NCBI RefSeq assembly: GCF_000179635.2
Contig: NC_014825.1
Span: 240,001 to 272,000, forward strand
Length of the DNA stretch: 32,000 nucleotides
Direction of reading: 5' to 3'
Origin: Ruminococcus albus 7 = DSM 20455
Lineage (GTDB): Bacteria; Bacillota; Clostridia; Oscillospirales; Ruminococcaceae
Every line of letters begins with the position of its first letter. Position 1 is the stretch's first letter. Both the position numbers and the translations under genes were made by a program. Positions 6,059 to 30,708 of the stretch are shown here, in pieces. The notes under the pieces were generated by a model that did no database searches, had not been told where the DNA came from, and worked only from the letters and a program-made list of their open reading frames with translations.

Positions 6059-6082
6059 AGCCGTTCTCAGCCGAGGACGGCT
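6059..6082. terminator. hairpin between convergent hsdS' and the recombinase gene
   Basis: agccgttctc-agcc-gaggacggct forms a 10-bp stem with one G-U pair and a 4-nt loop. It lies between the stops at 6052 (+) and 6089 (-). Confidence 0.5.
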
Positions 6083-6088
6083 ATTTAA

Positions 6089-6895: not shown

Positions 6896-6958
6896 TTACT
6901 TCTACTCCTTTTTATACTGAATTTGGTGCGAAATTCCTTGTATAATCATTATACCAAA

Positions 6959-7567: not shown

Positions 7568-7583
7568 GGCTCTTTTCTATATT
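7544..7583. repeat. 40-bp perfect palindrome containing the overlapping stop codons of two convergent hsdS reading frames
   Basis: aatatagaaaagagcctcagctgaggctcttttctatatt is symmetric about 7563/7564. Both genes end ...NIEKSLS-TGA, and the two stops overlap within the 8-bp palindromic core tcagctga at 7560-7567. Confidence 0.9.
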
Positions 7584-13857: not shown

Positions 13858-13924
13858 GACGAATCACCTCCATCATAAAGTAACTTCCCATAATACCGTA
13901 CTATGAGAACTTATTATCTATTCT

Positions 13925-13953
13925 ATTATACCACAATTTGCACAATTAGTCAA
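13925..13953 (-). promoter_or_regulatory. hsdRMS promoter TTGACT-17-TGgTATAAT
   Basis: On the minus strand, TTGACT is at 13953-13948, followed by a 17-nt spacer, then TATAAT at 13930-13925. GGAGGTG RBS precedes the ATG at 13857. Confidence 0.6.
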
Positions 13954-14119
13954 TTGTCATACAGCGAAAAAAATATAGTTTCACACCGAGCTGATTGATT
14001 CATAAGTATCTGAAACAAGCTATAGATCATAGATATTAGATTATTCCATTCATCGCTACATCAACTATTTTCTGTAGAAAAAACGATAATTTTCTGTCGC
14101 GTTATGATAATTTTCTTGC

Positions 14120-15235
14120 ATGGAAAAGTTCATCTATTTTTCTGAGGTGGCATATGCTTGGTTTACGATGAGCCGCGAGGTTGAAGTAAAAGGAATCAAA
14201 ATGGTAGCAACAGTCCCTGAAGATTTACAGATTTCTGTTGGTAAGATTACTGCTACCAAGAACCTTAATGACACAGATAGCTTTTTGGCTGATTTAAGCA
14301 GCGGAAAGGCGATTGCTCCAACGGAAAATATCATGTGGTCGAACACTGTAAATTTAAGCCAGTATTATGAATTTGGTCGCTTAATTCCTGCTTCATCCTC
14401 TAAAGGAACGAATATATTCTTTACTCCCGATGCAACAGAAGAAGGTAAAAATGTTGCAAGAAATGCAAAATATATACAAGCAGCAACAGGATTGACGCCT
14501 ACAACTAGCACTTCTAGTATGATGGCAACACTTCATGCTAGAACGGGTGCCGCTGATGCATGGGCGGCTCCAACTGGAACGGGTTATACTCAAGCTGTAA
14601 ACTACATGGATACGCAGGATGATGGATATTATGTTGATATTCCCGTATGGATTAGAACTTCCACCACTGAAAATGTTGATCTTAAAGTTGAGGGCTTTGT
14701 AATTCCTAAGGATGCAACTAATAAAGGTTTAAAGGATGCAACAGCGGCTGAACTGTATAAGGCTACCCGTGTAGCCATCTTACCTGCTGCTGGCGATACA
14801 ACTAATGCCGAAAAAGGTACTAAAGGTGTAATTGACCTTAAGGATGGTGCTGCTACTGATACACCTGGTTGGAGTAGTGTTACCTCAATAATTGACTATT
14901 ATGGCACCAGTGCAATGCACGGGATAGCTAATGGTGCAGTTAAAGCTGCAGTAGACGCAAATGGTACAGAGAATCACGTTGAGGGTGGTTCAGAAACCAA
15001 TGCTGATAATTGGTCATTAATTTACGAAGCTGCTACTGTATATAATGGAACAGCGAGCATTGCAACAATTGCAGGTGCGACAGCTGGTGCAGAGTATGGA
15101 ACAGCAACACAGCTTTGGATTCGTGTATGGCTTGAAGGCGAAGATCCCGAGTGTTGGAACAAGAATGCTGGGCAGGATTGGAATATATCGCTTAAGTTCT
15201 CAAAGATTGAACCTGCCGCACCATCTGATCCGTAA
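14120..15235 (+). CDS. TasA/camelysin-like secreted-protein paralog c1, leader truncated
   Basis: The frame is open from 14111 (FSCMEKFIYFSEVAYAWFTMSREVEVKGIKM...). YAWFT-MS-E resembles the end of a SipW-type signal peptide. Blocks DDGYYVDIPVWIRTS and LWIRVWLEGEDPECWNKNAGQDWNISLKF are shared with c2 and c3. No Shine-Dalgarno precedes the ATG at 14120. Confidence 0.6.
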   Translation: MEKFIYFSEVAYAWFTMSREVEVKGIKMVATVPEDLQISVGKITATKNLNDTDSFLADLSSGKAIAPTENIMWSNTVNLSQYYEFGRLIPASSSKGTNIFFTPDATEEGKNVARNAKYIQAATGLTPTTSTSSMMATLHARTGAADAWAAPTGTGYTQAVNYMDTQDDGYYVDIPVWIRTSTTENVDLKVEGFVIPKDATNKGLKDATAAELYKATRVAILPAAGDTTNAEKGTKGVIDLKDGAATDTPGWSSVTSIIDYYGTSAMHGIANGAVKAAVDANGTENHVEGGSETNADNWSLIYEAATVYNGTASIATIAGATAGAEYGTATQLWIRVWLEGEDPECWNKNAGQDWNISLKFSKIEPAAPSDP

Positions 15236-15266
15236 CAACCACACTAAACAAAACATGGATATTTGT

Positions 15267-15297
15267 GTCCCCCCTCCTCGCAGAGGGGGGATTTTTT
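15267..15297 (+). terminator. rho-independent terminator after c1
   Basis: tcccccctc / gagggggga form a 9-bp GC-rich stem with a 6-nt loop, followed by T7. Confidence 0.85.
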
Positions 15298-15430
15298 TAA
15301 CTATACACATCATCGCGATGCAACACTATACTGTAATCGGCAAAAAAGATGAACCATTAAACATAAAAATATTCTCATAATAACGCTGTCACAAAGCCGT
15401 GCTATACTTATTCTGAAAGGAGTTGATAGC

Positions 15431-17464
15431 ATGGCTGAAATAACTATAATACAGCCAAGAGAACAGCCCCGCAGAAAACTTCGCTGCGGGGCATATTGCA
15501 GGGTATCGACGGGGCGAGAGGAACAGCAGCACTCATATGAGGCGCAGCGGCTGTGGTTCATGACGCTGCTCGGTGGCTCGCAGACAGAGGAGCTTGTGGA
15601 CATCTATGCGGACATAGGGATAAGCGGAACGACCACCGACCGCCCTGAGTTCATGCGTATGCTTAACGATTGCAGGCATGGGTGCATTGACCGCATACTC
15701 ACCAAGTCGATCAGCCGCTTCGCCCGCAACACCCGTGATTGTCTTGCAATACTGCGTGAGCTTCGGGAACTGGGCGTGACGGTTTTCTTCGAGAAAGAGA
15801 ACATCGACACTGCGAGAACTGCCGACGAAATGATGATAGCGATTATGGGCGGTCTTGCACAGGAAGAATCGCAGTCCATTTCGAGGAACATTCGCTGGAG
15901 CCTGCACCGCAAAATGGCGGCAGGGACGCTCGGCGTGGCGCGTGTACCTTACGGTTATGACAAGGTGAACGGCAGACTTGTGATAAATGATGAACAGGCG
16001 GCGGTCGTCCGGCGCATTTTTTCGCTGTATCTCGGCGGAATGGGTGCAAGACGAATCGCCGCTCTTTTCAATTCCGAGGGTCTGCCTGCACCCGAATCCA
16101 CCGCATGGAACAATATCACTGTCTACAAAATGCTCGCACAGGAGATGTATCTCGGTGATATTCGCTGGCAGAAAACAGTGTCCGTGTTTATGGGGACAAG
16201 CCACCCGAACACGGGGCAAGCTAACAGCTTCTATGTCAGTGGAAGTCATGAGCCGATAATTGACCGAGAGACTTTTGAATCGGCGCAGGCTTTGCGGTTA
16301 AAAAGCGTTCGTCCCGCCGAAAAGACCAATAACAGCCCGTTTCGTCAAAAGGTTGTCTGCGGAATTTGTGGGAGGTCGTACTACTTGATTGGTGCGGCTC
16401 GCCCTTACTGGCAATGCACGAGGCGATTTGATCTTGTCAAGCCCTGCACGAACGATATTCTGCATGATGAAACGCTTTCCGACTTGTGGCGAGTGATATG
16501 GACAAAGTTCACCAACCATGCCGATGATGTTCTCCTGCCGCTTATTGGGCAGCTTGAAAGGATCGCTGAAAAGGTCTCTGAAAATGCAGAAAGCGGTCGC
16601 CTTGACGAAATAATGCAACAGAAAATGACCCTTCGCAAAATGTGTGCGGAGGGTCTTATTTCTTATGGGGAAGTCATAACCTCCGAGACCGAGCTTAACG
16701 CCGAGTATTCCTCCTTGATTGAGAATTGCAGAAAACAAAAGGAGCATAATTCACTTTTGATAAATGAGGTAAAAACGCTCTACAAAGCGGTTTCCGCTGC
16801 TCATAGTGATTGTTGTGCCGATATTCTCAAATCTATCCGATTTGCCCACGATACCGCTGATTTTGAGCTTGTGAGCGGCATACATATCATTATGAGCATC
16901 CCGAAGCATAAAAAACGAATAATTACATCACATAATCCTATAAATGCGATTCGCTCACTTGCCTTGTGCGGAGGCTGCGGAGGAAGGCTTTCACGGCGCA
17001 AGGTCGAGGGTGTATATCTCTGGAAATGCTCAAACCGCCGTTGTTCTTATTGGAGGTCAAAGCATACGGACGAAGATATGATAGGCAACACAACTGACGT
17101 TTTTTCAAAGGTATACGCTGACCCACGCTTAGTAAGTCTTAAATGTTCCATGACGGAATATCGTCCAACGGAAAGTGTTCTCACAATGCTGGAAAGCCTT
17201 GAAAAGCTGATAGCTTTGGGAGAAAACGCTGAAATGCTTATCAAAGCGGCGGTTCATCTTGCAGAGGAAAAAATCGGCTGCATTGAGTACAACGTGAAAA
17301 CCGAGCAGACCGCGCATATAGAGGACGCTATCAAGAATTGTGTGGAGCTGCCGGAGTTTCTAATACAAGCGGTCAGGCACATCTATGTCACGCCCGACAG
17401 AGTGCGTGTTAAGTTCATCAACGGAAAGACGGTCAAAAGTGAAAGGAGCACCAACCATGAGTAA
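15431..17464 (+). CDS. large serine recombinase A1 with C-terminal extension homologous to the zinc-ribbon/C-terminal part of B2
   Basis: Contains YCRVST catalytic-serine motif, SISRFARNT and LAQEESQSISRNIRW, plus recombinase and Zn-ribbon regions (CGICGRSY...WQC). A second Cys cluster (CGGCGGRLS...WKCSNRRC) appears after residue about 505. AAAGGAG RBS. Confidence 0.85.
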   Translation: MAEITIIQPREQPRRKLRCGAYCRVSTGREEQQHSYEAQRLWFMTLLGGSQTEELVDIYADIGISGTTTDRPEFMRMLNDCRHGCIDRILTKSISRFARNTRDCLAILRELRELGVTVFFEKENIDTARTADEMMIAIMGGLAQEESQSISRNIRWSLHRKMAAGTLGVARVPYGYDKVNGRLVINDEQAAVVRRIFSLYLGGMGARRIAALFNSEGLPAPESTAWNNITVYKMLAQEMYLGDIRWQKTVSVFMGTSHPNTGQANSFYVSGSHEPIIDRETFESAQALRLKSVRPAEKTNNSPFRQKVVCGICGRSYYLIGAARPYWQCTRRFDLVKPCTNDILHDETLSDLWRVIWTKFTNHADDVLLPLIGQLERIAEKVSENAESGRLDEIMQQKMTLRKMCAEGLISYGEVITSETELNAEYSSLIENCRKQKEHNSLLINEVKTLYKAVSAAHSDCCADILKSIRFAHDTADFELVSGIHIIMSIPKHKKRIITSHNPINAIRSLALCGGCGGRLSRRKVEGVYLWKCSNRRCSYWRSKHTDEDMIGNTTDVFSKVYADPRLVSLKCSMTEYRPTESVLTMLESLEKLIALGENAEMLIKAAVHLAEEKIGCIEYNVKTEQTAHIEDAIKNCVELPEFLIQAVRHIYVTPDRVRVKFINGKTVKSERSTNHE

Positions 17465-19055
17465 TATAAAGACAGCGGCAAACGTGACACTTATCCCTGC
17501 AAAGGAGCAGGCAAACAGCGTATTTACAGGCAAAAAGCTGAAAGTGGCGGCTTATTGCAGGGTCAGCACAGACGAAACCGAGCAGATGAACAGCTTCGGA
17601 GTACAGATCGCGTACTACACCGACTACATCGGCAGCCGACCCGACTGGCAGATGATCGGCATTTTTGCGGACGAGGGCATCAGCGGCACGCAGACCGAGA
17701 ACCGCACACAGTTCAACCGCATGATCGAGCTGTGCCGCAAGGGGCGCATCGACCTGATACTCTGCAAGTCGATCAGCCGTTTTGCGCGGAATACCGTCGA
17801 TTGCCTTGATTTCGTGCGTGAGCTGAAAAGGCTGAATGTGGCGGTACAGTTTGAAAAGGAGAACATCAACACGCTGTCGGTCAGTTCGGAGTTTGCGATA
17901 ACGCTGTACGCAAGCTTCGCGCAGGCGGAAAGCGAGAGCATCAGCCGCAACATAACATGGGGTATCGAAAAGTCGTTCAAGGAAGGCAACGTGCGGTATC
18001 AGATGAGATACACGCTGGGGTATCGGCTGGTGGACGGCGTTCCGCAGATAATCGAGGACGAAGCCGTGATCGTGAGGGAGATTTTCAGCCTTTTTGCGGG
18101 CGGTATGAGTCTGCGAAAGATAGCAGAAAGACTAACCTCTGAGGGTGCAGCCCGCAGAAATGGCAGCACCGTCTGGAACCGCGACCATGTGAACTCTATC
18201 CTCAAAAACGAAAAATATGTGGGAGACGCCATTTTGCAGAAGTACTATACGGTCGATTGCCTGACCCACACCTGTGCGAAGAACAACGGTCAGAAGCCAA
18301 AGTATCTGGTGCAGAACTGTCACGCCCCGATCATCGACCGCGAAACTTGGGACAGGGTGCAGCTGGAGTTGTCCCGTCGCAGTGCTATGACGAAAGGCAA
18401 CGCTCGCGGGGGACGTTACCGCACTGAATACGCCCTGAGCGAGCTGCTCGTCTGCGGCAGCTGCGGCTGCAATTACAAGCGTGTGCTGTGGAAAAGTGGC
18501 ACCGGCAAGCGTGCCGTGTGGCGCTGCAAAAGCACTCTTGACGGTGGTAAGGCGAGGTGCGATTCGCCCAGCCTGCACGAGGAAGCACTGCACAGCGCGA
18601 TAGTGAGGGCGATAAACGAGCAGATACTTGACAGTAGCGGCTTTGATAGACAGTCTGCTCTTTCCGCAGATACCCTTGAATCCGAAAACGCCGACCTTGA
18701 ACGCAGGATAGCTTCGGTCAGTGCTCGCCTTGGAGAAATAGAAGTTGAGCGTAACCGCCTGCTTGCGGATATTTCTGCTATTCCTGCCGACGTTCTTGGT
18801 AGCAAGTTAAAGCTCCTGCACACGGAGGAACAGGAGCTGAAATCCAAACTTGATGAACTGAACAGCAAGCGCGATTCGGGGCGGCATGATCTGTACCGTA
18901 TCAAGGCGGCGAGGAATCTGACGCATGGTATTGAAGCGCTCGGGGAGTTTGATAATGATCTGGTCAGACAGGTTGTTGAGGAGATCACTGTTAAGAGCGC
19001 TGATAAGGTCGTTGTGAAGTTTTGTGGTGGCGAGAAGGTAACAGTTAAGGTTTAA
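17457..19055 (+). CDS. large serine recombinase A2 (ortholog of B1)
   Basis: Start MSNIKTAANVTLIPAK lies 8 nt after AAAGGAG and overlaps the A1 stop by 8 nt. Motifs AAYCRVSTDE, SISRFARNT and FAQAESESISRN, and Zn ribbon CGSCGCNY...WRC. Confidence 0.85.
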   Translation: MSNIKTAANVTLIPAKEQANSVFTGKKLKVAAYCRVSTDETEQMNSFGVQIAYYTDYIGSRPDWQMIGIFADEGISGTQTENRTQFNRMIELCRKGRIDLILCKSISRFARNTVDCLDFVRELKRLNVAVQFEKENINTLSVSSEFAITLYASFAQAESESISRNITWGIEKSFKEGNVRYQMRYTLGYRLVDGVPQIIEDEAVIVREIFSLFAGGMSLRKIAERLTSEGAARRNGSTVWNRDHVNSILKNEKYVGDAILQKYYTVDCLTHTCAKNNGQKPKYLVQNCHAPIIDRETWDRVQLELSRRSAMTKGNARGGRYRTEYALSELLVCGSCGCNYKRVLWKSGTGKRAVWRCKSTLDGGKARCDSPSLHEEALHSAIVRAINEQILDSSGFDRQSALSADTLESENADLERRIASVSARLGEIEVERNRLLADISAIPADVLGSKLKLLHTEEQELKSKLDELNSKRDSGRHDLYRIKAARNLTHGIEALGEFDNDLVRQVVEEITVKSADKVVVKFCGGEKVTVKV

Positions 19056-19091
19056 TATTTTATCATCTTTGCGGTCATCTCTTTTTCAAAA

Positions 19092-20171
19092 GTGGAATAT
19101 GCTTGGTTTACGATGAGCAAGGAAGTTGAAGTTACAGGAATTAAGATGACAGCTTCAGTTCCTGAGAATATTCAAGTTTCACTTGGTGCTGGTACAAATG
19201 GTACAGCAGGTTTAACAGGCGCTTCGTTTGTGGAAGCAAACGATGGTTCAACTCGTACACTTACTGTCACAACTCCTAGTGTAGCAGACGGAACAACAGA
19301 TTGGACTAATACTGTTGCAATATCCGATTACTATACTTTTGGTCGTTTGACTCCTGCTACATCAAAAGATGGCAATGATATATTCTTTACTTCTGATGCT
19401 ACTAGAGCTGGTCGTGCGCTGTTACAAGACACTTATGATGCAAATCAAAAAGCACTTACTGGTAAGAGTTATGCGGCATTCGTTCAAGCAGATACAGCTG
19501 CAACAAGTAAATATCAGGCATGGACAGAGCCTAATGATGTAACTGGTGCTTCAATGACCACAACCACAAAGGGTGCTACTACTAATGTGACTATTGCGGA
19601 TATTGATAAGACTGGTGGAGGTTACTATGTTGACATTCCTGTATGGTTTAGAACATCTATTACGGGTGCGGAAAATGAGAATGTTCAGCTTGCTGTAATC
19701 GCAACAATTACTCCTAAAAAGACAGGTGCTACTGCTGATGCAGTAACTACGCCTGATTTGTATCTTGCTGCTCGATGTGCATTGATTCCTAGTGGTGGAA
19801 GTGCAGTTGGAGCAATTATGGATAGCACAACAAAGTATTACCATACTGAAGAGGGCGCTGTAGATAGTGTTAATGGTTATGCTCCAGCATCTGCGTATAC
19901 AGTAAATGCTGCAACCGATAATTCGACTGCTCCTACATGGGTTCAGGTAGATCCTGTTACACAAGCCACAACTGCGGCTATAAATGATGGAATTGCTGGT
20001 GATGGTGAGGCGGTAGTCCTTGTGCCTAAGTCTACATCAACAAGTGGCGAATATGGCTCTGCTGCCGCTTATACTTTACGTGTTTGGCTTGAAGGCGAAG
20101 ATGTTAACTGCTGGGATGAAACTGCCGCTCAGGACTTCCAGATTGATCTTAGATTCATAAGAAAGAGCTAA
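19092..20171 (+). CDS. TasA/camelysin-like paralog c2, leader truncated by the A2 stop codon
   Basis: The frame is open from 19056, directly after the A2 TAA and in the same frame (YFIIFAVISFSKVEYAWFTMSKEVEVTGIKM...). No RBS. C-terminus is YTLRVWLEGEDVNCWDETAAQDFQIDLRF. Confidence 0.6.
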   Translation: MEYAWFTMSKEVEVTGIKMTASVPENIQVSLGAGTNGTAGLTGASFVEANDGSTRTLTVTTPSVADGTTDWTNTVAISDYYTFGRLTPATSKDGNDIFFTSDATRAGRALLQDTYDANQKALTGKSYAAFVQADTAATSKYQAWTEPNDVTGASMTTTTKGATTNVTIADIDKTGGGYYVDIPVWFRTSITGAENENVQLAVIATITPKKTGATADAVTTPDLYLAARCALIPSGGSAVGAIMDSTTKYYHTEEGAVDSVNGYAPASAYTVNAATDNSTAPTWVQVDPVTQATTAAINDGIAGDGEAVVLVPKSTSTSGEYGSAAAYTLRVWLEGEDVNCWDETAAQDFQIDLRFIRKS

Positions 20172-20207
20172 TCTTTATAGTATATGAACTCATAAATTAT
20201 GCAATAT

Positions 20208-20239
20208 AGCCCCTCTCTCCAAATTCGGAGAGAGGGGCT
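20208..20239. terminator. bidirectional hairpin between convergent c2 and c3
   Basis: agcccctctctcc-aaattc-ggagagaggggct gives a 13-bp perfect stem. Confidence 0.75.
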
Positions 20240-20271
20240 TATGGTATGCTTTATGGTTTTATATACAACTA

Positions 20272-21534
20272 TTAGCTTTCGATCTTTGCAAACTTCAGAG
20301 CAATTGCCCAATCCTGTCCAGCATTATCATTCCAGCATTCAAAGTCTTCACCATCAAGCCAAACTCTTATGATGAGCTTCTTAGCAGCACCATACTGTCC
20401 ATTAGTTGTACTACCTGCAACAGTTGCTACATTAGACCAGGCAGAAGCAGCAGAAGTAGGTGTTATGCAAGTGTAGTCAGTATAAGTACCAGCATAAGTA
20501 TCAACCACTCCATCACCATCGGGATCAGTTGCTGTTGTAGCTGCTGCACTTACGCCAGCATACATCTGCCCCTCAGCACCCTTGGCATACTTTGGCTGAT
20601 TTGCAGCAGTAAGTGCTGACGGAAGAGTTCTGCCAGTAGTAGCAAGGTTAGCAGAGTCGACAACAGATGTAAGAGTATTAGCCCACGGATTTGCAACGCC
20701 TGTAATAGCTGAAAATGTTCCATCTGTAACATTAGCTGATGTATCCCATGCATCTTTCAAAGGAATTATATTATTAGTGTTTGCAACTGCTGCATCACCT
20801 GCGGTACAAGCAACAGCACCAGTAGAAGCATTTTCAGAAACTGTCTCACCATCAAGGATTGCAACCCTAATTGCTCTGTACAGTTCAAGATCTGTTTCCT
20901 TGTTTGATGCGCCTTCGCCAGTATTTAAACTTCCAGGTAAAACATAGCCATCAACAGAAAGATTTATAGCTTCATTAGAAGAGGTTCTAAGCCATATAGG
21001 AATGTCAACATAATAACCATCATCTTTTGTTTTATTCCAAGTATCTGCCTGAGCATAAGCACCTGTACCTACAACGTTCCAGTTATCAGCTGTTGAAGTC
21101 TTAGCATGCAGCGTAGTTTTGTAAGTTGTTCCAGTGCCAGCGTCCGCAACAGGTGTGAGTTTATCTGTCGCTTGATAATAAGAAGCATTACCCTTAACTG
21201 TTTTACCAACACCATTTGCATCAGGCGTAAAGAATATCTCTCTGCCGTCATATGAAGATGCAGGTATCAATCTACCAAACTGGTAATAAGCACTTATATC
21301 TGCACTATTTGACCAATCCCACGATTTTTCAGGAGCAGAAGCACCGCCATTGTCAGCAGCACCAGCCGATGCAGAATACAGAACACCAGTACTAGCTCCA
21401 AGAGAAACACCATTCTCATCAACTTCAGCAGAATTGGGTGTATCGACATCTGCTAATCTTCCTAACGAAATCTGCAGGTCTTCTGGTACGGTTGCAGTCA
21501 TCTTAATACCTGTGACTTCAACTTCCCTGCTCAT
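20272..21534 (-). CDS. TasA/camelysin-like paralog c3, leader truncated
   Basis: The frame is open up to 21588 (AVLRLCIYTVKAIYAWFTMSREVEVTGIKMTATVPEDLQISLG...), with an in-frame TAG at 21589-21591. No start codon or RBS upstream of the internal Met. Confidence 0.6.
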   Translation of the reverse strand: MSREVEVTGIKMTATVPEDLQISLGRLADVDTPNSAEVDENGVSLGASTGVLYSASAGAADNGGASAPEKSWDWSNSADISAYYQFGRLIPASSYDGREIFFTPDANGVGKTVKGNASYYQATDKLTPVADAGTGTTYKTTLHAKTSTADNWNVVGTGAYAQADTWNKTKDDGYYVDIPIWLRTSSNEAINLSVDGYVLPGSLNTGEGASNKETDLELYRAIRVAILDGETVSENASTGAVACTAGDAAVANTNNIIPLKDAWDTSANVTDGTFSAITGVANPWANTLTSVVDSANLATTGRTLPSALTAANQPKYAKGAEGQMYAGVSAAATTATDPDGDGVVDTYAGTYTDYTCITPTSAASAWSNVATVAGSTTNGQYGAAKKLIIRVWLDGEDFECWNDNAGQDWAIALKFAKIES

Positions 21535-21852
21535 GGTAAACCAGGCATATATCGCTTTAACGGTATAGATACATAGCCTTAAAACCGCCTAATATCGTCA
21601 TTTTTCACACTTTATTTGAACGTTCAAAAAAGTGTGTTTTCGTAGATGACCGAGCCTATTTTGTACCGACTTTCATTTTCAATATCTAAAATTGATATTT
21701 CGTATATCAATCATTCATAGCTGTGATATTGAACGCAAAAAATAATAATATAATAATTTTAACCTCGCATTTCTTATTCATCGTGACAAAATATCGGTGC
21801 ATTATTTATCCATAGTGAACTTGTAATTTGTTTCGATAAAAGCACAAAGCAA

Positions 21853-21890
21853 TCTCCCCTTGTATCATTGAGAAATAATACAAGGGGAGA
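21853..21890 (-). terminator. terminator hairpin after the AAA-ATPase gene
   Basis: tctccccttgtat ... atacaaggggaga forms a 13-bp perfect stem with a 12-nt loop, 27 nt beyond the stop at 21917. Confidence 0.65.
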
Positions 21891-21916: not shown

Positions 21917-23518
21917 TTACTTTGTGACCGTTTCTATCGTGCAAGTATGAACCTTAGTCTTTTCATCATAGTTGATGCCGACAAGTATGATCTTACCTTT
22001 ACGGTTCTTTAGGATAGTCGGATATTCACGGTCTTTGATCTGCTGAATGGCTGCCGTGTCAGACTTGTTCCATTTCAGCTCGATAACAAGTGTCGGATCG
22101 GTAGCCTTACGAGGAATGAAAACAACATCAGCGATACCCTTACCGCTTGGAAGCTCCTCGATCTTCATGTAGTTATCAACACAAACGATATAGGCAAACT
22201 TGATAACATACCTGAGTGCCTGCTCGTCATTGTAATAGGTGGGAGCATAGTTCATCATACGAATTTCGTCAATGGCTTTCGCAACAGCTTCTTCATTTCC
22301 GCTTATTGTATCTTGCAGGAGCTTTTTGGAATTACTGAGAAGATCGACCAGCACTTCATGCTTGGTCATTTTAAGGATATTGGAAAATTCAAGCCTGATT
22401 TCGTCGTTCGGGATATGAACAAACTCCCTGATGATCTCGTCCTCGTCATCGCCCTCTCCGAGTATCTCAACTTTCTGTTCGTATGCCAGATAGCCGAGGT
22501 GAACAAGTAAGGTCAGAACATCGTCTTTCAGCTTGAATCCTGTTACGTCATTCTTAAAACTGCTTGTGTTGATCTCAATGGTCTCGCCAGCAATAAGCTG
22601 TGCAATATCCCCTTGCAGACCTTCTTCGTCCATTTCAATATAGTCAAGCAGATTATCCGCCGCCGAGGTCTGTCTCCAATACGATGTGTATTTTTTCTTT
22701 TTGGCAGCACAGATAACCGAATACGGGTTGTAAACAGACTGAACATCACCAACAGTATAGCCGTCATACCATTTCTTCATCTTGCGGAAGTCAGCGTGAT
22801 ATTTGTCGCATATCTTATGAACATCTTCTTCCAAAAAACCAGTATATTTTGCAAATTCATCAGGCTCTATGATTGAATGTTCCTCAAAATCAGATATAGC
22901 AGACTGTGAACCATCTTTCTTTATAGGCAGGATACCTGTCATATATGCTGCGGCAAATATCTTGGGCGTTGTTGAACTGCTTTTAAAAAGCATACGCAAG
23001 AACAGTAGGTATTCTTTGGAATTGACCATAGACTCACGAATGGGTGCGTCCCACTCGTCTATTATCATCACAATTTTTCTGCCTGTTTTTTCTACTGCGT
23101 TAATAAGCGTTTGATCGAATGATGAACCTTTTATGATGTTTGTATCAGTAGCAAGGATTTCATTTTCAACGTTGTCCTTAATGAATTGAATCAGCTTCTC
23201 AGGTTCAACTTTTTCAAGCAAATTTGTCATATCAAGATAAATAACATGATATTTATTGATATTACTCTCATAGGTTCTATCGCTGCTGATCTCATACTTT
23301 TCAAAAAGGCTGTGAGAATCGCAAGTGTAGTCATAGTAGGCACAAAGCATTTTAGCAGCATAAGACTTGCCGAAACGGCGCGGACGGCTGATACACACCA
23401 ATTTGCTCGGAGTATTGATACGCTGATTTATCAAGGCGATAAGACCTGTCTTATCAATGTAGTCACCATTCAGCACTTCCTCAAATCCGCTGTTGCCGGG
23501 ATTGAGATATGTTCCCAT
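21917..23518 (-). CDS. AAA-ATPase-like / PD-(D/E)XK nuclease fusion protein (AAA-ATPase_like + PDDEXK_9 architecture)
   Basis: Start MGTYLNPGNSGFEE follows GGAGGTG; the track ORF extends to 23584. Walker A PRRFGKSYAAK, Walker B VMIIDEWD, and C-terminal nuclease core GIADVVFIP...LVIELKW. Confidence 0.75.
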   Translation of the reverse strand: MGTYLNPGNSGFEEVLNGDYIDKTGLIALINQRINTPSKLVCISRPRRFGKSYAAKMLCAYYDYTCDSHSLFEKYEISSDRTYESNINKYHVIYLDMTNLLEKVEPEKLIQFIKDNVENEILATDTNIIKGSSFDQTLINAVEKTGRKIVMIIDEWDAPIRESMVNSKEYLLFLRMLFKSSSTTPKIFAAAYMTGILPIKKDGSQSAISDFEEHSIIEPDEFAKYTGFLEEDVHKICDKYHADFRKMKKWYDGYTVGDVQSVYNPYSVICAAKKKKYTSYWRQTSAADNLLDYIEMDEEGLQGDIAQLIAGETIEINTSSFKNDVTGFKLKDDVLTLLVHLGYLAYEQKVEILGEGDDEDEIIREFVHIPNDEIRLEFSNILKMTKHEVLVDLLSNSKKLLQDTISGNEEAVAKAIDEIRMMNYAPTYYNDEQALRYVIKFAYIVCVDNYMKIEELPSGKGIADVVFIPRKATDPTLVIELKWNKSDTAAIQQIKDREYPTILKNRKGKIILVGINYDEKTKVHTCTIETVTK

Positions 23519-23563
23519 AAAAATCACCTCCGTGATCGTAACACGATACACTTTATCTATTCT

Positions 23564-23592
23564 ATTATACCCTATATCAAACAAAATTGCAA
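23564..23592 (-). promoter_or_regulatory. promoter TTGCAA-17-TATAAT for the AAA-ATPase gene
   Basis: On the minus strand, TTGCAA is at 23592-23587, followed by a 17-nt spacer, then TATAAT at 23569-23564. Confidence 0.55.
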
Positions 23593-23651: not shown

Positions 23652-25289
23652 TTACTTCTCTACCGCCACATTCATTTCATGCCCATCCTTGAAGATGATC
23701 TGCACCTCGTTCTTGGACAGTACCCTGATAACCTCAATGACCTTGCGGACGGTCACATCGTCATATTCGGCAAGGTGGCAGTCATGACGGCGCAGCTCCT
23801 CACCGACAGCCATGAGAGCGTATTTCTTCTCATCACTCAGCTTGGCTTTGGTCTGCATATCGTCAAGCTGGGTTTTCAGGTAGGCTTCCTCGTCGTTCAG
23901 GCTCTCAAAGTTTTTGTCGAGGGCATCTTCATCGACTGCACCGCTTGTGATCTGACGGACAAGTGAATCCCTCTCGTCCTCTATTTCTTCAAGGCGTTTC
24001 TGTATTTTGGCAGTCTGTTTCTGCATATCGCCATTGTCGCCGATGACAGCAAGGATATTCTGCTCCATTCGGGCAAGCATATCGCCGTTTCGGGAATAGA
24101 CAGCGTTCAGAGCCTTGACGATAGCATTTTGCAGGCTTTCTTCGCTGATTGAGGGAGAATGTTTGCAGTATTTACTGCCGTGATCGAGCCTGCTGATACA
24201 CCGCCACACGATACGCTTGTGACCGTGTGAAGTCCATGTTACCCTTCGGTATGCCGTTCCGCACTCTCCGCATATTAGAATATCGGTCAGGGCGTATTTG
24301 CTTGAATACTGCCCCAATTCCGTCCTTGCCTTTGCAGAGCGTTTCTTGATCGCTCCACGCTTCGCAAGTTCCTGCTGAACACGATTATATGTATCACGGT
24401 CGATAATGGCAGGGTGGCAGTCATGAACGATGTACTTATTTTTCTCGCCGTTGTTCTTGACACGCTTGTGGGTGATGCAGTCGATGGTGTAGCTTTTTTG
24501 GAGGATTGCATCGCCTGCGTATTTCTCATTTTTGAGGATGAAATTCACATTCGCCCTGTTCCATGTTGACGAACCGCTTCGGCGTTTGATACCCTCCGAC
24601 TGCAATTGATCTGCGATGCCCTGCATACTCATACCGTCAAGAAACATGACATAGATACGGCGGACAATCTCCGCTTCTTCCTCCACTATATACGGCACAC
24701 CGTCCTCGCCCATGCGGTAGCCGAGTGTCTTGTCGAGAACATACTTGACCTTGCCCTCACGGAAAGATTTCTCGATACCCCACGATACATTTTTGCTGAT
24801 ACTCTCGCTCTCTGCCTGAGCGAATGAACCATACAGCGATATGATAAATTCGCTGTTCATCATCATGGTGTTAATGTTCTCTTTCTCAAAAATAACGCCA
24901 ATGCCGAGCAGTCTCAGTTCACGGATATATTCAAGACAATCCACAGTATTTCGGGCGAAACGGCTGATTGACTTGCACAGCACAAGGTCGATTTTCTTTT
25001 GCTGACACTTGCGTATCATCTTGTTGAACTGCTTGCGGTTCTTGGTCTGCGTACCGCTGATGCCCTCGTCTGCGAATATGCCTGCAAGCGTCCATTCGGG
25101 GTTGGAGTTGATGAGGTTCGTGTAGTATTCTATCTGCACCTGATAGCTGTTCGCCTGTTCCTCGCTGTCGGTGGATACACGGCAGTAGGCAGCCACACGA
25201 ATTTGCCTGTATTTGGACTGTTTCAGCTCGGCAGGCGAGAGGGCAGGTATCATCGTAACATTGGAAGCCATATCGTTATTCTTCGGCAT
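23652..25289 (-). CDS. large serine recombinase B1
   Basis: Motifs AAYCRVSTDSEEQ, SISRFARNTVDCL and FAQAESESISKN, Zn ribbon CGECGTAY...WRC and a coiled-coil tail. GGAGG RBS. Aligns along its whole length with A2. Confidence 0.9.
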   Translation of the reverse strand: MPKNNDMASNVTMIPALSPAELKQSKYRQIRVAAYCRVSTDSEEQANSYQVQIEYYTNLINSNPEWTLAGIFADEGISGTQTKNRKQFNKMIRKCQQKKIDLVLCKSISRFARNTVDCLEYIRELRLLGIGVIFEKENINTMMMNSEFIISLYGSFAQAESESISKNVSWGIEKSFREGKVKYVLDKTLGYRMGEDGVPYIVEEEAEIVRRIYVMFLDGMSMQGIADQLQSEGIKRRSGSSTWNRANVNFILKNEKYAGDAILQKSYTIDCITHKRVKNNGEKNKYIVHDCHPAIIDRDTYNRVQQELAKRGAIKKRSAKARTELGQYSSKYALTDILICGECGTAYRRVTWTSHGHKRIVWRCISRLDHGSKYCKHSPSISEESLQNAIVKALNAVYSRNGDMLARMEQNILAVIGDNGDMQKQTAKIQKRLEEIEDERDSLVRQITSGAVDEDALDKNFESLNDEEAYLKTQLDDMQTKAKLSDEKKYALMAVGEELRRHDCHLAEYDDVTVRKVIEVIRVLSKNEVQIIFKDGHEMNVAVEK

Positions 25290-26145
25290 TGTTAACCTCC
25301 TTGTATGCGATGCGCTTTCCGTTTCTGAACTCTATCGCTATAACCTTGTTTTCATCAACGGTTATTCTGCTTACGATCTGCAATAAAAGCTCCGTATCAA
25401 TCGTTTCGGAAGGCTCATGTCCTGCAATCAGGTCTTGAAGCTCCTGCGTGATATACGGCTCTCTGCTGTATGTGCAGGCGTTGTATTTCATGACTGCCAG
25501 CGCAAGCGTTTTCGACTTTATCAGCTCATATTCAATGGGCTGAACAGCACAGAGCTGAGATATTTCCTTTTCTGCCTGCCGTATTTCTTCGGTAGGCTCA
25601 TACACAGTCAGAGGCGTACCTGTTTCAAGCATATCGGAATTACCGACAACATCGTTCATAATGCTCTGCACCACCGACACGAAATAATCATCGGGAATCC
25701 TCGGCTTAAAGTTCGCACAGCCCTTACGAGTACACCGCCACCGTTTGTAGCCTGTCCTGTCGGAGAAATGCACCATATTCGTACCGCACACGGTACAATA
25801 GGACAGCTTTTTCAGCACCGTGTAGGTATCGGGGACTTTCACTTTTTTGGCTGAGTTTCCGATATTTGAAGCGCCGAAAATGTCCTCCGAAATGATTGCA
25901 GGATAGCCGTCCGCACCGCAGTACCGCCCGTCACGGAGAATGCCGTACACCTTGTCGATAGCTTTTTTCTTATCCTCCGAGAAATAGGGTATCTGTTCAT
26001 CATAGAGTGCTGCACCGATCTTACTGCCAGATAAGCCGTTTGCCTTTTCGTCAAAGATACGGCGGATTATCTCGGCTTCACCAATATCAACAGCGATCCT
26101 GCCCTCTGCCCAAATGTAGCCGTAGGGGGTCTTTTTAATTGCCAT
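25276..26145 (-). CDS. recombinase-domain/zinc-ribbon protein B2 lacking the resolvase catalytic domain
   Basis: Begins MAIKKTPYGYIW, at the point where the LSR recombinase domain starts. There is no Y-x-R-x-S serine motif. Zn ribbon CTVCGTNM...WRCTRKGC. Overlaps both B3 and B1. Confidence 0.75.
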   Translation of the reverse strand: MAIKKTPYGYIWAEGRIAVDIGEAEIIRRIFDEKANGLSGSKIGAALYDEQIPYFSEDKKKAIDKVYGILRDGRYCGADGYPAIISEDIFGASNIGNSAKKVKVPDTYTVLKKLSYCTVCGTNMVHFSDRTGYKRWRCTRKGCANFKPRIPDDYFVSVVQSIMNDVVGNSDMLETGTPLTVYEPTEEIRQAEKEISQLCAVQPIEYELIKSKTLALAVMKYNACTYSREPYITQELQDLIAGHEPSETIDTELLLQIVSRITVDENKVIAIEFRNGKRIAYKEVNNAEE

Positions 26146-27673
26146 TCCTATCCAACCTTTCTGTAAATTCAAGTCCGCTGGGCAGCCTGAAAGTCAGCGT
26201 ATCGCCCGAAATGGTGATGCTCTCGACTGCTGTTTCAAGTATCTCCTTACGGGCTTCGGGAGTGCCGTCATAGCCTTTGAAAAGCTCTGCAAGAGTTTCC
26301 ATATCATCAATGGTCTTGTCCTTGTTCTCACTTGCCCTGTCCATACTGCGTGACAGGCTGCTGATCTGCATATCAATTTCCGTGACCTCACGGTCATACT
26401 TCTCGGTGGTGATAAAGCGTTTTCTGTACAGCGTGGCGAGCCTGAGCTTCTGCTCTTTCAGGTCGGCAATGGTTTTTAGCTGATTTGCTCCCTCTGCCGT
26501 ACCGTATTCCATAAGTCTTTGAAGCTCCGTGAGCTGTGCATAGCACTTGCCGATGATCTCCGCATTATGGGTATGGAGCTTGTCGCACAGTGCTGTGAAA
26601 GCAGTCTGCAATTCATCAGCATATAAAACAGTGTTATTGCAGGGATTGCCGACATCGTAGCGATAACCGCATTGCCAATAATCACGCTTTTTGGAGCGTA
26701 TCAGGGCATATGTGTGACCGCATTTTCCGCAAATCAGCTTCTTTCTGAATGGCGATTCGACCTTAGTGCTTTTCTGAGGTGTGGACGCTTTCCGCATATC
26801 CCTGACAAGGGCGAATTTCTCCTTGCTAATGATGGCAGGGTGGCTGCCCTCGATGTAATACTGCGGCACCTGTCCCGAATTGGGAATGAACTTCTCACCC
26901 ATGAATTTGGAGTAGGTTTTCTGCCAGAGTGTATCGCCGATATACTTCTCCTGTTCCAGAATGTTCAGCACCGTCTTTTGATTCCACGCTTTACCTGTGG
27001 GTGAGGGTATGCCCTCATCGGTCAGAGTAAGAGCGATCTTCCTTGCACCCATTCCGCTGATATACATATCGAATATCCTGCGGACGACCTCGGCTTTATC
27101 GGGTTCGATGATGAGCTTGCCTGTTTTCTTCTCTTTGGTGTAACCGTAGGGGACACGGCAATGCCCGAACGTACCCGATGCCATTTTCTTTTGAATGCCC
27201 CAGCGGACGTTGTTGGATATGGACTGTGATTCCTCCTGCGCCAGACCGCCCATGACGGTTATCATCATTTCGTCCGATAGCCTTGCCGTGTCGATATTTT
27301 CTTTCTCAAATGCTATGGTGATGCCCAGCTCTTTCAGCTCTCGGATAGATTTCAGGCAGTCCTTAGTATTTCGGGCGAAACGGCTGATAGACTTCGTGAC
27401 GATACGGTCGATTTTGCCAGCCCTGCAATCCTCCATGAGCCTTTGAAACTCCACACGCTTATCCATGCTCGTCCCCGAAATGCCCTCATCTGCGTACACA
27501 CCGACAAGCTCCGATGTCTCCGAACCTCTGTACAGGCTCGTGAAGTACCGCACCTGTGTTTCGTAGGAATGCTCCTGATCGTCCTTGTTGCTCGATACTC
27601 TGCAATACGCAGCCACTCTGATACGTCCCTGCCTGATCTGCGACACGGCAGGGATCACTGTCATTTTCTTCAT
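26135..27673 (-). CDS. large serine recombinase B3 (ortholog of the N-terminal 500 aa of A1)
   Basis: Motifs AAYCRVSSNKDDQ, SISRFARNTKDCL and LAQEESQSISNNVRW, Zn ribbon CGKCGHTY...WQC. AGGAG spacing favours the second ATG at 27673; the track ORF starts at 27679. Confidence 0.9.
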   Translation of the reverse strand: MKKMTVIPAVSQIRQGRIRVAAYCRVSSNKDDQEHSYETQVRYFTSLYRGSETSELVGVYADEGISGTSMDKRVEFQRLMEDCRAGKIDRIVTKSISRFARNTKDCLKSIRELKELGITIAFEKENIDTARLSDEMMITVMGGLAQEESQSISNNVRWGIQKKMASGTFGHCRVPYGYTKEKKTGKLIIEPDKAEVVRRIFDMYISGMGARKIALTLTDEGIPSPTGKAWNQKTVLNILEQEKYIGDTLWQKTYSKFMGEKFIPNSGQVPQYYIEGSHPAIISKEKFALVRDMRKASTPQKSTKVESPFRKKLICGKCGHTYALIRSKKRDYWQCGYRYDVGNPCNNTVLYADELQTAFTALCDKLHTHNAEIIGKCYAQLTELQRLMEYGTAEGANQLKTIADLKEQKLRLATLYRKRFITTEKYDREVTEIDMQISSLSRSMDRASENKDKTIDDMETLAELFKGYDGTPEARKEILETAVESITISGDTLTFRLPSGLEFTERLDRNGN

Positions 27674-27786
27674 AAACATCAGCTCCTGTTTTTACTGTTC
27701 AGATTTTGATACATATTTACGGTTTAGATGACCTGTTGCTTTTTGAATACGGAACAAGCAATTCGCCTGTTCCGTACCAATTCCGT

Positions 27787-30671: not shown

Positions 30672-30708
30672 TAAAAGACCTCCTTCACATACAGCCTTTT
30701 TCACCCCA

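What the first reader, a model, noticed from the sequence alone, without database searches (positions are those of the whole stretch)
14108..21591. Three paralogous TasA/camelysin-like genes all truncated at the same point in the signal-peptide coding region
**Shared blocks.** c1 (14120-15235, +), c2 (19092-20171, +) and c3 (20272-21534, -) share three conserved blocks:
- [AEI]YAWFTMS[RK]EVEV[KT]GIKM.A.VPE
- DDGYYVDIP[VI]W.RTS
- RVWL[ED]GED..CW...A[AG]QD[WF].I.L[KR]F

The stretches between them are divergent and T/A/G-rich. YAWFT-MS-E resembles the cleavage end of SipW-type signal peptides (G-T-Y-A-Y-F-S-D-T-E).

**Upstream of the Thr.** Each frame still looks coding: FIYFSEVAYAWFT, VISFSKVEYAWFT and CIYTVKAIYAWFT. 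In c3 the differences are third-position synonymous (gcc/acc versus gct/acg). An in-frame stop is then reached 19, 19 and 18 codons upstream.

**What is missing.** None of the three has a lysine-rich n-region. None has a start codon with a Shine-Dalgarno, whereas almost every other gene in the window has a clear GGAGG-type RBS. All three copies therefore look like leaderless cassettes.

**Arrangement.** c2 and c3 lie tail-to-tail around a 13-bp stem. Their conserved 5' boxes (about 19092-19175 and 21455-21540) are therefore inverted repeats.

**Possible readings.**
- (a) LSR elements repeatedly target this leader sequence.
- (b) The copies are a silent-cassette archive for recombinational variation of a surface-fibre subunit, with the expression site elsewhere.
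- (c) Plain decay.
Basis: partly seen in the sequence, partly recalled or inferred. Interest (0 to 1): 0.8.

Follow-up and report, generated by a model that had tools for sequence, protein, structure and literature searches.

The report
Fibre-subunit genes beheaded by recombinase-driven mobile elements
Three copies of a secreted-fibre gene in Ruminococcus albus 7 lost their promoter and signal peptide because mobile elements that use large serine recombinases all insert at the same two bases, and for one copy other cultures of the same strain still carry the intact gene.

Summary
c1, c2 and c3 are intact open reading frames of one hypervariable family, and all three are cut at the same nucleotide. 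About 600 homologs exist; most start with a roughly 32-residue signal peptide ending ...TST|YAWFTMSREVEV.

The cut is the TA of the Tyr codon. What lies upstream of each copy is not decayed coding sequence. It is the element-side arm of a large-serine-recombinase (LSR) attachment site, so each junction is an attR.
- **c3:** contigs from other runs, 100% identical over 11.3 kb, join it to an intact leader beside a SipW-type signal peptidase operon. The inserted element, E3 (three LSR genes), has ends at four or more other TA targets.
- **c2:** it abuts a two-LSR mini-element that sits next to different bodies in other genomes.
- **c1:** it carries the same class of arm, but no recombinase lies nearby.

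Orphan leaders, the attL side, stack upstream of the live gene in seven genomes. Each insertion brings its own ribosome-binding site and leader, and E3 is shown to bring a whole gene.

TasA-family membership fails by HMM, but a SipW-dependent secreted protein is supported. This is a new variant of a known kind.

The parts
14153..15235 (+). c1 body: mature-protein part of a family gene, starting at the TA core (14153-14154) in the Tyr codon of YAWFT; it lacks promoter, RBS and signal peptide
   Evidence: Intact homologs carry a ~32-aa leader. Orthologous junctions occur in L030 and L090.
14128..14152 (+). Class-alpha element-side (P-type) att half-site joined to c1: GTTCATCTATTTTTCTGAGGTGGCA
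   Evidence: 19/25 identical to the arm at c2, with no similarity further upstream. The same arm occurs at three junctions in L030.
15267..15292 (+). Intrinsic terminator after c1
15338..15355 (+). Probable remnant of the left (inverted) alpha arm of the two-LSR mini-element (tcggcaaaaaagatgaac); the core-proximal part is not conserved
   Evidence: Homology to the L030 mini-element (84% over 3.86 kb) starts at window 15337. In L030 this arm runs on to a TA core joined to an inverted body. This is an inference.
15431..17464 (+). LSR1, a large serine recombinase (677 aa)
   Evidence: Resolvase + Recombinase + Zn_ribbon_recom domains. 82% identical copy in L030.
17385..19055 (+). LSR2, a large serine recombinase (556-aa ORF; called as 532 aa from 17457); its stop codon lies 42 bp before the c2 core
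   Evidence: 90% identical copy directly upstream of a different truncated body in L030; 532-aa LSRs sit directly upstream of P0042 in L091/L092.
19073..19097 (+). Class-alpha P-type att half-site joined to c2: GGTCATCTCTTTTTCAAAAGTGGAA
19098..20171 (+). c2 body, starting at the TA core (19098-19099)
20208..20239 (.). Palindrome between the convergent c2 and c3: a likely bidirectional terminator
20272..21549 (-). c3 body, starting at the TA core (21549-21548 on the - strand). It is identical to the body of the intact 460-aa gene P0039 seen in other runs of the same strain.
21550..21572 (-). Class-beta P-type att half-site: the right end of element E3 (GTATCTATACCGTTAAAGCGATA on the - strand)
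   Evidence: The same end is joined to c3, to a sigma-70 gene region and to a macB/FtsX gene in different runs. It forms an inverted repeat with the beta' arm at E3's left end.
21853..21890 (-). Terminator after the E3 ATPase gene, upstream of c3
21917..23584 (-). E3 gene: AAA-ATPase_like + PD-(D/E)XK protein (called as 533 aa from 23518)
   Evidence: The same LSR-ATPase-junction order is seen in L020, L035 and L057.
23652..25289 (-). LSR3 (545 aa), about 51% identical to LSR2
25276..26172 (-). LSR-related ORF lacking the catalytic Resolvase domain (289-298 aa)
26135..27679 (-). LSR4 (512-514 aa), about 44% identical to LSR1
28748..30704 (-). E3 replication-type genes: a DUF5906 protein and a CHC2 zinc-finger primase-like protein. 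E3 continues beyond the window's right end.

Best explanation
c1, c2 and c3 are the displaced 3' parts ('bodies') of genes for a hypervariable secreted protein that depends on a SipW-type signal peptidase. Each was cut from its promoter, RBS and signal peptide when a mobile element integrated by large-serine-recombinase (LSR) site-specific recombination.

The crossover is the 2-bp TA of the Tyr codon in ...T-S-T-Y-A-W-F-T.... By analogy with TasA, this lies two codons before the predicted cleavage site.

Each junction in the window is therefore an attR, an element P-type arm | TA | gene B-type arm:
- **c2** is the attR of a 3.8-kb mini-element made of LSR1 + LSR2 (arm class alpha).
- **c3** is the attR of E3, a large element with three LSR genes, an ATPase and primase-type genes (arm class beta).
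- **c1** is the attR of a third, alpha-armed element end, HTH-IrrE-UmuC-YolD..., into which the type I RM system later inserted.

The matching attL sides are orphan leaders stacked upstream of the currently intact gene at one chromosomal expression site. That site has a consensus promoter and lies divergent from the sipW operon.

Elements of at least two classes (beta and delta) carry their own RBS and leader immediately inside attP; for E3 a whole family gene and operon follow. Integration therefore silences the resident subunit and installs the element's own behind the host promoter. The new gene is a fresh target, so leaders pile up on one side and bodies on the other.

**Shown:**
- the common breakpoint;
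- the intact c3 allele in the same strain;
- E3 ends at several TA targets;
- arm symmetry;
- the LSR association;
- leader stacking.

**Inferred:**
- which LSR acts at which site;
- the order of events;
- c1's history;
- silence of the bodies;
- the cleavage position.
For: 1. **Truncation is real.** Most of 120 listed homologs start MKK...KKLIPAAGML..SA.ML.TST before YAWFT. A minority elsewhere are cut at exactly the same residue.
2. **Same-strain variant.** Logan contigs L001-L006 match window 10272-21549 at 100.000% over 11,278 bp. At 21549/21550 they continue into an intact leader (P0039, 460 aa) and the sipW locus. The window-type junction is in other runs.
3. **Core.** The attB-like site is ACG-TA-TGC and the attL-like sites are ACG-TA-AC[AT]. 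The attR-like sites are GGCA-, GGAA- and GATA-TA-TGC. Only TA is shared.
4. **E3 is mobile.** Its right end is joined to c3, to a sigma-70 gene region or to macB/FtsX 3'. Its left end is joined to leader2, the matching macB 5' part, a promoter-like region or a fourth site. The core is always TA and the right flank TATG..GTTTAC-like.
5. **Arm symmetry.** E3's two arms are inverted repeats (ATCTAwACCGTTArAGC..TA..GCTyTAACGGTwTAGAT; 19/30, the best of 16 arms).
6. **P-type against B-type arms.** Most P-type arms share a G-TCA motif at 18-25 nt from the core. The gene-side arm has GCTCATCG at 12-19 nt. This is the P-versus-B half-site offset known for LSRs (read).
7. **LSR association.** 9 of 16 truncated copies have an LSR upstream, against 0 of 39 intact copies (p = 1.8e-6). 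The LSR2-like gene abuts different bodies in L030 and L091/L092. The bodies are only 35-47% identical although the element DNA is 82-85% identical.
8. **Stacked leaders.** Orphan leaders in L011, L014, L030, L043, L055 and L059 all end ...[ST]T|TAAC. The unit length is fixed at 227 bp (delta') or 248 bp (beta'), and each unit ends in a new leader.
9. **Empty site.** Strains 99% identical in the flanks have leader1 joined directly to a body (L007, L008, L010, L012, L016).
10. **Recombinase domains.** All four LSRs have Resolvase + Recombinase + Zn_ribbon_recom.
Against: - No free attP junction was recovered for any class. The E3 attP 30-mer is absent from JGI metagenomes, and no Logan place showed it.
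- For the alpha class, which covers c1 and c2, only arm|body junctions were seen and never leader|alpha. In L030 the mini-element is flanked by two bodies facing outward, which a single simple insertion does not produce.
- c1 has no recombinase within 14 kb upstream.
- A palindromic TA core gives an LSR no polarity information. That is unusual for this family.
- The window is annotated as plasmid pRUMAL02, whereas the matching attL and the sipW locus are on the chromosome. At least one further rearrangement, or an assembly choice between E3 copies, must be assumed.
- No expression data were examined.
Confidence: 0.8

Rival explanations
1. Programmed cassette switching, as in Mycoplasma pulmonis vsa. 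Under this reading c1-c3 are a maintained archive of silent bodies. LSR1/LSR2 are domesticated recombinases that exchange bodies between the single leader-bearing expression site and alpha|TA|box sites by inversion, for example of the 2.45-kb c2-c3 segment flanked by inverted boxes.
For: - There is one promoter-bearing expression site beside sipW.
- leader|c3 and alpha|c2 are inverted sites around a convergent gene pair in R. albus 7, and the same layout (leader|A, B|alpha) occurs in L030.
- Alpha arms are only ever joined to bodies, never to leaders. Body swapping would predict this.
- The LSR1-LSR2 module is conserved inside the array in two species but in opposite orientation.
- All bodies are intact ORFs.
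- A palindromic TA core would permit either orientation.
Against: - No junction of the swapped type (leader2|c2 or alpha|c3) was found.
- The only variation seen in the same strain is insertion or absence of a bona fide mobile element that also sits at unrelated genes.
- The sites are of attR and attB type, a pair that LSRs are not known to recombine (established LSR biochemistry; my own knowledge).
- Bodies next to the same element end are non-orthologous between genomes, as expected for independent insertions.
Confidence: 0.12
2. RecA-dependent homologous recombination between paralogs at the conserved box, with no site-specific enzyme, scrambled the locus and left 5'-less copies.
For: - The box and the first ~60 nt are the most conserved DNA of the family.
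- Multiple E3 copies, or plasmid-chromosome exchange, probably do involve homologous recombination.
Against: - Homologous exchange would put breakpoints inside the shared sequence, not at its outer edge next to unrelated DNA.
- Sixteen junctions in 10 genomes share the identical TA boundary and fall into conserved arm classes with inverted-repeat symmetry.
- E3 uses the same core at non-homologous targets.
Confidence: 0.04
3. Plain decay, or genuinely short N-termini. Either the copies are pseudogenes truncated by random deletion, or the proteins naturally start near MSREVEV.
For: Gene callers annotate such starts (for example Rumal_3909 and P0002, P0003, P0005).
Against: - The breakpoint is identical in three copies and in other genomes.
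- The ORFs are otherwise intact.
- c3 is identical to an allele with a full leader.
- There is no SD and no signal peptide, although the family is otherwise exported.
Confidence: 0.02

Closest known systems
Large-serine-recombinase elements that integrate inside a coding gene and can restore it on excision (SPbeta/SprA in spsM, the skin element/SpoIVCA in sigK, A118-like phages in comK)
   Same: - LSR with Resolvase + Recombinase + zinc-ribbon domains.
- A 2-bp crossover inside an ORF.
- attL and attR with a longer element-side half-site.
- The gene is intact when the element is absent, as seen here for c3.
   Different: - The target is a conserved motif shared by a multi-copy, hypervariable family, so many genes per genome are targets and several element lineages converge on it.
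- The cut separates the signal peptide from the mature protein.
- The element brings a replacement leader, and for E3 a replacement gene.
- The core is a palindromic TA.
SCCmec-type islands (CcrA/CcrB LSR pair at rlmH/orfX) and their tandem composite arrays
   Same: - Paired LSR genes on a small element.
- Successive elements accumulate at one chromosomal site because a usable site is regenerated.
- The catalytic-domain-less LSR-related ORF in E3 (25276-26172) weakly resembles CcrA.
   Different: - Here the regenerated target is a whole new gene copy carried by the incoming element, not the retained end of rlmH.
- The arrays consist of orphan leaders and orphan bodies of a surface-protein gene.
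Clostridial LSR transposons Tn4451/Tn4453 (TnpX) and Tn5397 (TndX)
   Same: - The LSR serves as the sole integration/excision enzyme of a mobilisable or conjugative element.
- A 2-bp core.
- Several target sites that resemble the element joint, as shown here for E3 at four or more sites.
   Different: - The core is TA rather than GA.
- There are three recombinase-type genes in tandem.
- The favoured target is the family box.
Mycoplasma pulmonis vsa locus (one expression site, silent 5'-truncated genes, site-specific inversion by HvsR)
   Same: - Silent copies all lack the promoter and signal-peptide region and begin at a conserved recombination box inside the coding sequence.
- A phase-variable hsd locus lies next door.
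   Different: - The recombinases are LSRs on mobile elements, not a tyrosine invertase.
- The left halves of the sites differ (element arm against leader).
- No inversion variants were observed.
- The mechanism shown is insertion.
Bacillus subtilis tapA-sipW-tasA (TasA fibres)
   Same: - An exported beta-rich protein whose leader ends in an aromatic-rich T-x-A-x-F motif.
- A SipW/archaeal-type signal peptidase encoded at the expression locus.
- The TasA fibre is the top fold match.
   Different: - No sequence-model membership.
- The fold match is not significant.
- The proteins are larger (340-490 aa), with long variable T/A/G-rich inserts.

Membership tests
Large serine recombinase (LSR) integration system | Recombinase with an N-terminal Resolvase catalytic domain, a Recombinase domain and a zinc beta-ribbon domain | tested here: met
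   LSR1, LSR2, LSR3 and LSR4 all pass the three Pfam models. The 25276-26172 ORF lacks the catalytic domain.
Large serine recombinase (LSR) integration system | Crossover at a 2-bp core shared by all four site types; attL and attR are hybrids of attB and attP arms | tested here: met
   Only TA is common to the attB-like, attL-like and attR-like junctions. For E3, both hybrid junctions are seen at the macB target and at leader2/c3. attP itself was not observed.
Large serine recombinase (LSR) integration system | Imperfect inverted-repeat half-sites, with the element-side (P) half-site longer than the bacterial (B) half-site | tested here: met
   The beta and beta' arms match 19/30 as inverted repeats, and the alpha arms flanking the L030 mini-element match 20/25 by eye. 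The outer motif G-TCA sits at 18-25 nt from the core in most P arms, whereas GCTCATCG sits at 12-19 nt in the box arm (read).
Large serine recombinase (LSR) integration system | Recombinase-dependent integration and excision | not testable with these tools
   The evidence is indirect only: occupied and empty states of the c3 site in 100%-identical DNA, and E3 at different sites in different runs.
TasA / camelysin (Pfam Peptidase_M73) family | Match to the family sequence model | tested here: not met
   No Pfam hit for c1-c3 at E <= 0.01, nor for any of 25 intact members at E <= 10. The PDB sequence profile search found nothing.
TasA / camelysin (Pfam Peptidase_M73) family | TasA-like fold | tested here: inconclusive
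   The AF2 model of P0039 has pLDDT 67.7 and pTM 0.76. The best PDB match is the TasA fibre 8aur_A, but with E 0.018, probability 0.54 and TM 0.20/0.34.
SipW-dependent exported proteins | SipW-cognate class signal peptide (NCBIfam TIGR04088-type model) | tested here: not met
   No NCBIfam hit for intact members at E <= 10. By eye the leader is a basic n-region, a hydrophobic core and then TSTYAWFT. A related R. albus 8 protein (38% identical to the E3 family gene) is named 'SipW-cognate class signal peptide' by UniRef (P0305).
SipW-dependent exported proteins | Genetic linkage to a SipW/archaeal-type signal peptidase I | tested here: met
   P0121 scores 94.1 bits on TIGR02228 (cut-off 51.85) and 108.8 bits on the SipW model (below its equivalog cut-off of 190). 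The neighbouring DUF2357 protein carries a second such domain. Both lie in the operon divergent from the expression site.
Site-specific-inversion antigen switching (vsa-type shufflon) | One expression site plus several silent copies lacking the 5' end, each starting at a shared recombination box | tested here: met
Site-specific-inversion antigen switching (vsa-type shufflon) | Alternative junctions that exchange bodies between the expression site and silent sites within one strain | tested here: not met
   Only the E3-present and E3-absent states were found for c3. No leader|c2 sequence was found. The search was limited to available assemblies.

The most novel reading that the evidence does not exclude
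The sipW-linked locus may work as an integron-like exchange platform for the major subunit of a surface fibre. Under this reading, LSR elements deliver alternative subunit genes that are expressed only after integration behind the host promoter. Displaced bodies such as c1-c3 are kept intact and can return to expression. Return could happen by element excision, as seen for c3, or by LSR-catalysed exchange between leader|TA|box and alpha|TA|box sites, which the palindromic TA core would allow in either orientation. The result would be reversible antigenic variation driven by large serine recombinases.
Probability: 0.2. Interest if true: 0.85.

Novelty: new variant of a known kind. Interest (0 to 1): 0.6.

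Why it matters
- **Annotation.** It explains a recurrent puzzle in rumen Clostridia: many 'hypothetical' family genes appear to lack N-termini.
- **Target choice.** It shows several LSR element lineages converging on one 2-bp target at the boundary between signal peptide and mature protein in a hypervariable exported family.
- **Effect of insertion.** It suggests a way mobile elements can swap a cell-surface fibre subunit, and for E3 a whole fibre operon, in a single recombination step. That has likely consequences for phage or host recognition and for adhesion in a major fibre-degrading bacterium.
- **Tools.** It provides natural attB/attP pairs with a TA core for a set of related LSRs, which may interest genome engineers.
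- **Reference genome.** It flags that the replicon structure of the R. albus 7 reference (pRUMAL02 against the chromosome) may depend on recombination between element copies.

Tried and rejected
- **Pfam and NCBIfam** scans of c1-c3 and intact homologs found no family. The PDB sequence profile search found nothing.
- **Other copies in the window.** I searched for further copies of the box, for orphan leaders and for the beta' and delta' arms. There were none. The attL partners therefore lie outside the window.
- **PLSDB** does not hold pRUMAL02, so the plasmid could not be walked.
- **Viral contigs** gave one distant relative only, so these are not typical phage genes.
- **Metagenome scans** for a c2 5' end in another context and for the E3 attP joint both found nothing.
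- **The GTDB scan** did not return R. albus 7 itself.
- **A corrected pairing.** I first paired the 'TAACTCG' arm with the alpha arms of c1 and c2. Systematic comparison showed its real partner is a different (delta) arm, seen in L062 at 21/30, so that pairing was dropped.
- **Inversion as the link between L030 and the window** was considered. The bodies are not orthologous, so this could not be tested.
- **Literature.** Searches for R. albus with serine recombinases, and for SipW in Ruminococcus, found no prior description.

Full report
**1. What is in the window**

The window is part of the Ruminococcus albus 7 replicon annotated as plasmid pRUMAL02. c1 is 100% identical to Rumal_3909, on a 352,646-bp contig; the accession CP002405 for pRUMAL02 comes from PMC7672463.

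The three ORFs are present as described. The 22-bp box ATATGCYTGGTTTACSATGAGC occurs only at 14152, 19097 and 21529(-), with none expected by chance. Upstream similarity between the copies ends at the same base. None has a Shine-Dalgarno sequence or a basic n-region. The upstream frames close after 13-14 codons. c2 and c3 converge on a palindrome at 20208-20239. The three bodies are 35-46% identical to one another and have no internal stops.

The neighbours are as follows.
- Two LSR genes lie between c1 and c2.
- On the minus strand, LSR4, a catalytic-domain-less LSR-related ORF, LSR3 and an AAA-ATPase/PD-(D/E)XK gene read toward c3.
- A type I RM system lies left of c1.

**2. The copies really are truncated**

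A search of about 5.8 billion proteins found 599 relatives. Most of the 120 listed start with a basic stretch and a hydrophobic core, MKK..KKLIPAAGML..SA.ML.TST, immediately followed by YAWFTMSREVEV. A minority from other genomes start at or just before YAWFT with unrelated residues in front. The natural protein therefore has a signal peptide of about 32 residues, and c1-c3 lack it.

**3. Direct evidence for c3**

P0039 is c3 with a full leader. It is encoded on contigs assembled from six independent sequencing runs. These contigs match window 10272-21549 at 100.000% over 11,278 bp and diverge exactly at 21549/21550.

Beyond that point they carry a leader, an RBS and a second, orphan leader. 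A consensus promoter follows, TTGACA-17-TATAAT, read. A divergent operon then runs EAL, a 239-aa protein, signal peptidase I, a 526-aa protein and a DUF2357 protein.

The peptidase, P0121, passes the SipW/archaeal-type model TIGR02228 at 94 bits against a cut-off of 51.85. The DUF2357 protein carries a second such domain. The window-type junction is present in other runs. The same strain therefore exists with c3 attached to its leader and with c3 detached.

**4. What detaches c3**

The DNA upstream of c3 in the window is the right end of an element here called E3. On the minus strand its gene order, reading toward c3, is: CHC2 primase-like gene, DUF5906, LSR4, the LSR-related ORF, LSR3, ATPase.

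The same end, identical up to ...GCGATA|TA, is joined in other runs to a sigma-70 gene region or to the 3' part of a macB/FtsX gene.

E3's other end begins TA|ACAGGCTCTAACGGTTTAGATGACC. After it come an RBS, a leader, a family gene (P0241, FAWFTMNKEVQV), several further genes with SipW-type N-termini and a 3750-aa protein. This end is joined to leader2, to the matching 5' part of macB, to a promoter-like region or to a fourth site.

Only the dinucleotide TA is common to all junction types. The two E3 arms are inverted repeats of each other, 19 of 30, the best among 16 arms compared. E3 is thus a mobile element that integrates at TA by an attP x attB type reaction. The c3 junction is its attR, and leader2|TA|ACAGG is its attL.

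**5. c2 and c1**

*c2.* The LSR2 stop codon lies 42 bp from the c2 core. The 25 nt in between and upstream, GGTCATCTCTTTTTCAAAAGTGGAA, form an arm class (alpha) that recurs at c1 and at three junctions in the orthologous locus of another species, L030. c1 and c2 share 19 of these 25 nt and nothing further upstream.

In L030 the LSR1-LSR2 module is 84% identical in DNA over 3.86 kb and is bounded by two alpha arms in inverted orientation, 20/25 symmetric by eye. In L091 and L092 an LSR2-like gene abuts yet another body. Bodies next to homologous element ends are only 35-47% identical, as expected if the element entered different family genes independently.

*c1.* Its alpha arm is the end of an HTH-IrrE-UmuC-YolD block. 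That block is conserved next to a c1-like body in L030 and L090. The type I RM system is an extra insertion in R. albus 7.

*Unexplained.* c1 has no adjacent recombinase, and no leader|alpha junction was seen anywhere.

**6. Generality**

Among the window and 52 loci from species-representative genomes, all 16 truncated copies break at TA followed by [TC]GCNTGGTTYAC. Their upstream arms fall into at least five classes.

An LSR lies within 4.5 kb upstream on the same strand for 9 of 16 truncated copies and 0 of 39 intact ones (p = 1.8e-6). One of the 16, L026, was a misclassified intact copy.

Most element-side arms share a G-TCA motif 18-25 nt from the core. The gene-side arm has GCTCATCG at 12-19 nt (read). 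This offset is the known distinction between P-type and B-type LSR half-sites (my own knowledge of LSR-DNA structures).

**7. Leader stacking and gene replacement**

Orphan leaders occur in seven genomes. They always end ...[ST]T|TAAC, with two arm classes, and the distance from one core to the next is constant: 227 bp for delta' and 248 bp for beta'. Each unit ends in a new leader, and the last leader is attached to an intact gene.

Strains with 99%-identical flanks have leader1 joined directly to a body, which is the empty site. Each integration therefore brings a new RBS and leader, plus a gene for E3, behind the host promoter, and pushes the former body to the far side of the element. In this view c1-c3 are such displaced bodies. 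This last step is inference.

**8. What the protein is**

No Pfam or NCBIfam model matches. The AlphaFold model is mostly beta, with pLDDT 67.7 and pTM 0.76. Its best PDB match is the TasA fibre, but not significantly: E 0.018, TM 0.20/0.34.

Three points support a SipW-processed exported protein:
- linkage to SipW-type peptidases;
- the TSTYAWFT motif;
- a source annotation of a related protein as 'SipW-cognate class signal peptide'.

Membership of the TasA family is not shown. By analogy with TasA, which is cleaved after ...GGTWA (my own knowledge), cleavage would fall after ...TSTYA. The TA core would then remove all but two residues of the signal peptide.

**9. Open points**

- No attP joint was recovered.
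- The alpha class shows only arm|body junctions.
- The TA core is palindromic.
- The window is annotated as plasmid, whereas its attL partner and the sipW locus are on the 3.685-Mb chromosome. Yet contigs and an NCBI draft scaffold link the two directly.
- The junction census is macB5'|E3 and E3|c3 in the reference's own runs, leader2|E3 in others, and E3 at one site per run in another project. It fits one or two E3 copies whose flanks can be exchanged. That could be a real pop-out or cointegrate, or an assembly choice.
- A programmed switching role for LSR1/LSR2 is not excluded. I rate it at about 0.1-0.2.

**10. Verdict**

The mechanism is a known kind, LSR integration into a gene. The new features are convergence of several element lineages on a family-wide TA at the boundary between signal peptide and mature protein, replacement leaders or genes carried next to attP, and the resulting stacks of orphan leaders and bodies.

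Noticed in passing
window 4556-9170: Two inverted hsdS genes (4556-6052 +, 7560-9170 -) flank a tyrosine recombinase gene (6089-6895 -) and share 93-293-nt inverted repeats. This is a phase-variable type I RM 'epigenetic inverton', already listed for pRUMAL02 in PMC7672463. The whole RM block (about 4.5-13.9 kb) is absent from the otherwise syntenic loci L030 and L090.
   Followed up: partly
window 21548-21549, against L001, L009, L073 and L081: Replicon conflict. The window is annotated as plasmid pRUMAL02, whereas the sipW locus and E3's left end are on the 3,685,408-bp chromosome. Same-strain contigs and NCBI draft scaffold KK211249.1 link the sipW locus directly to c3-c2-LSR-c1-hsdR. The reference's own runs show macB5'|E3 and E3|c3. 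The 352-kb 'plasmid' may be a pop-out or cointegrate between E3 copies, or an assembly choice.
   Followed up: partly
L081 10001-21092 (E3 left end, outside the window): E3 carries an operon next to its att arm. It holds a family gene whose Tyr codon is replaced by Phe (TTC), so the gene lacks the TA core and may be immune to re-insertion. It also holds further proteins with SipW-type N-termini (IAWFT, VYAWL) and a 3750-aa protein. None has a Pfam match.
   Followed up: partly
window 25276-26172 (-): The middle gene of the three-gene recombinase cluster of E3 has the Recombinase and zinc-ribbon domains but no Resolvase catalytic domain. It weakly resembles CcrA. It may be an accessory or directionality partner rather than an enzyme.
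   Followed up: no
window 559-4471: An HTH regulator, an IrrE-like M78 peptidase, a UmuC/ImpB polymerase and YolD form a conserved cargo block. In three genomes it ends in the alpha arm joined to a c1-like body, yet no recombinase gene lies within the sampled flanks.
   Followed up: partly
L007, L008, L010, L012, L016 (sipW locus in strains 99% identical to R. albus 7): With flanks 99% identical, the single gene at the empty expression site has different bodies (418-460 aa) in different strains. This suggests strong diversifying exchange of the mature part of this protein.
   Followed up: no
L030 6259-10034: The LSR1-LSR2 mini-element is flanked by two truncated bodies facing outward (body|alpha ... 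alpha|body), not by a leader and a body. A single simple insertion does not explain this arrangement.
   Followed up: partly
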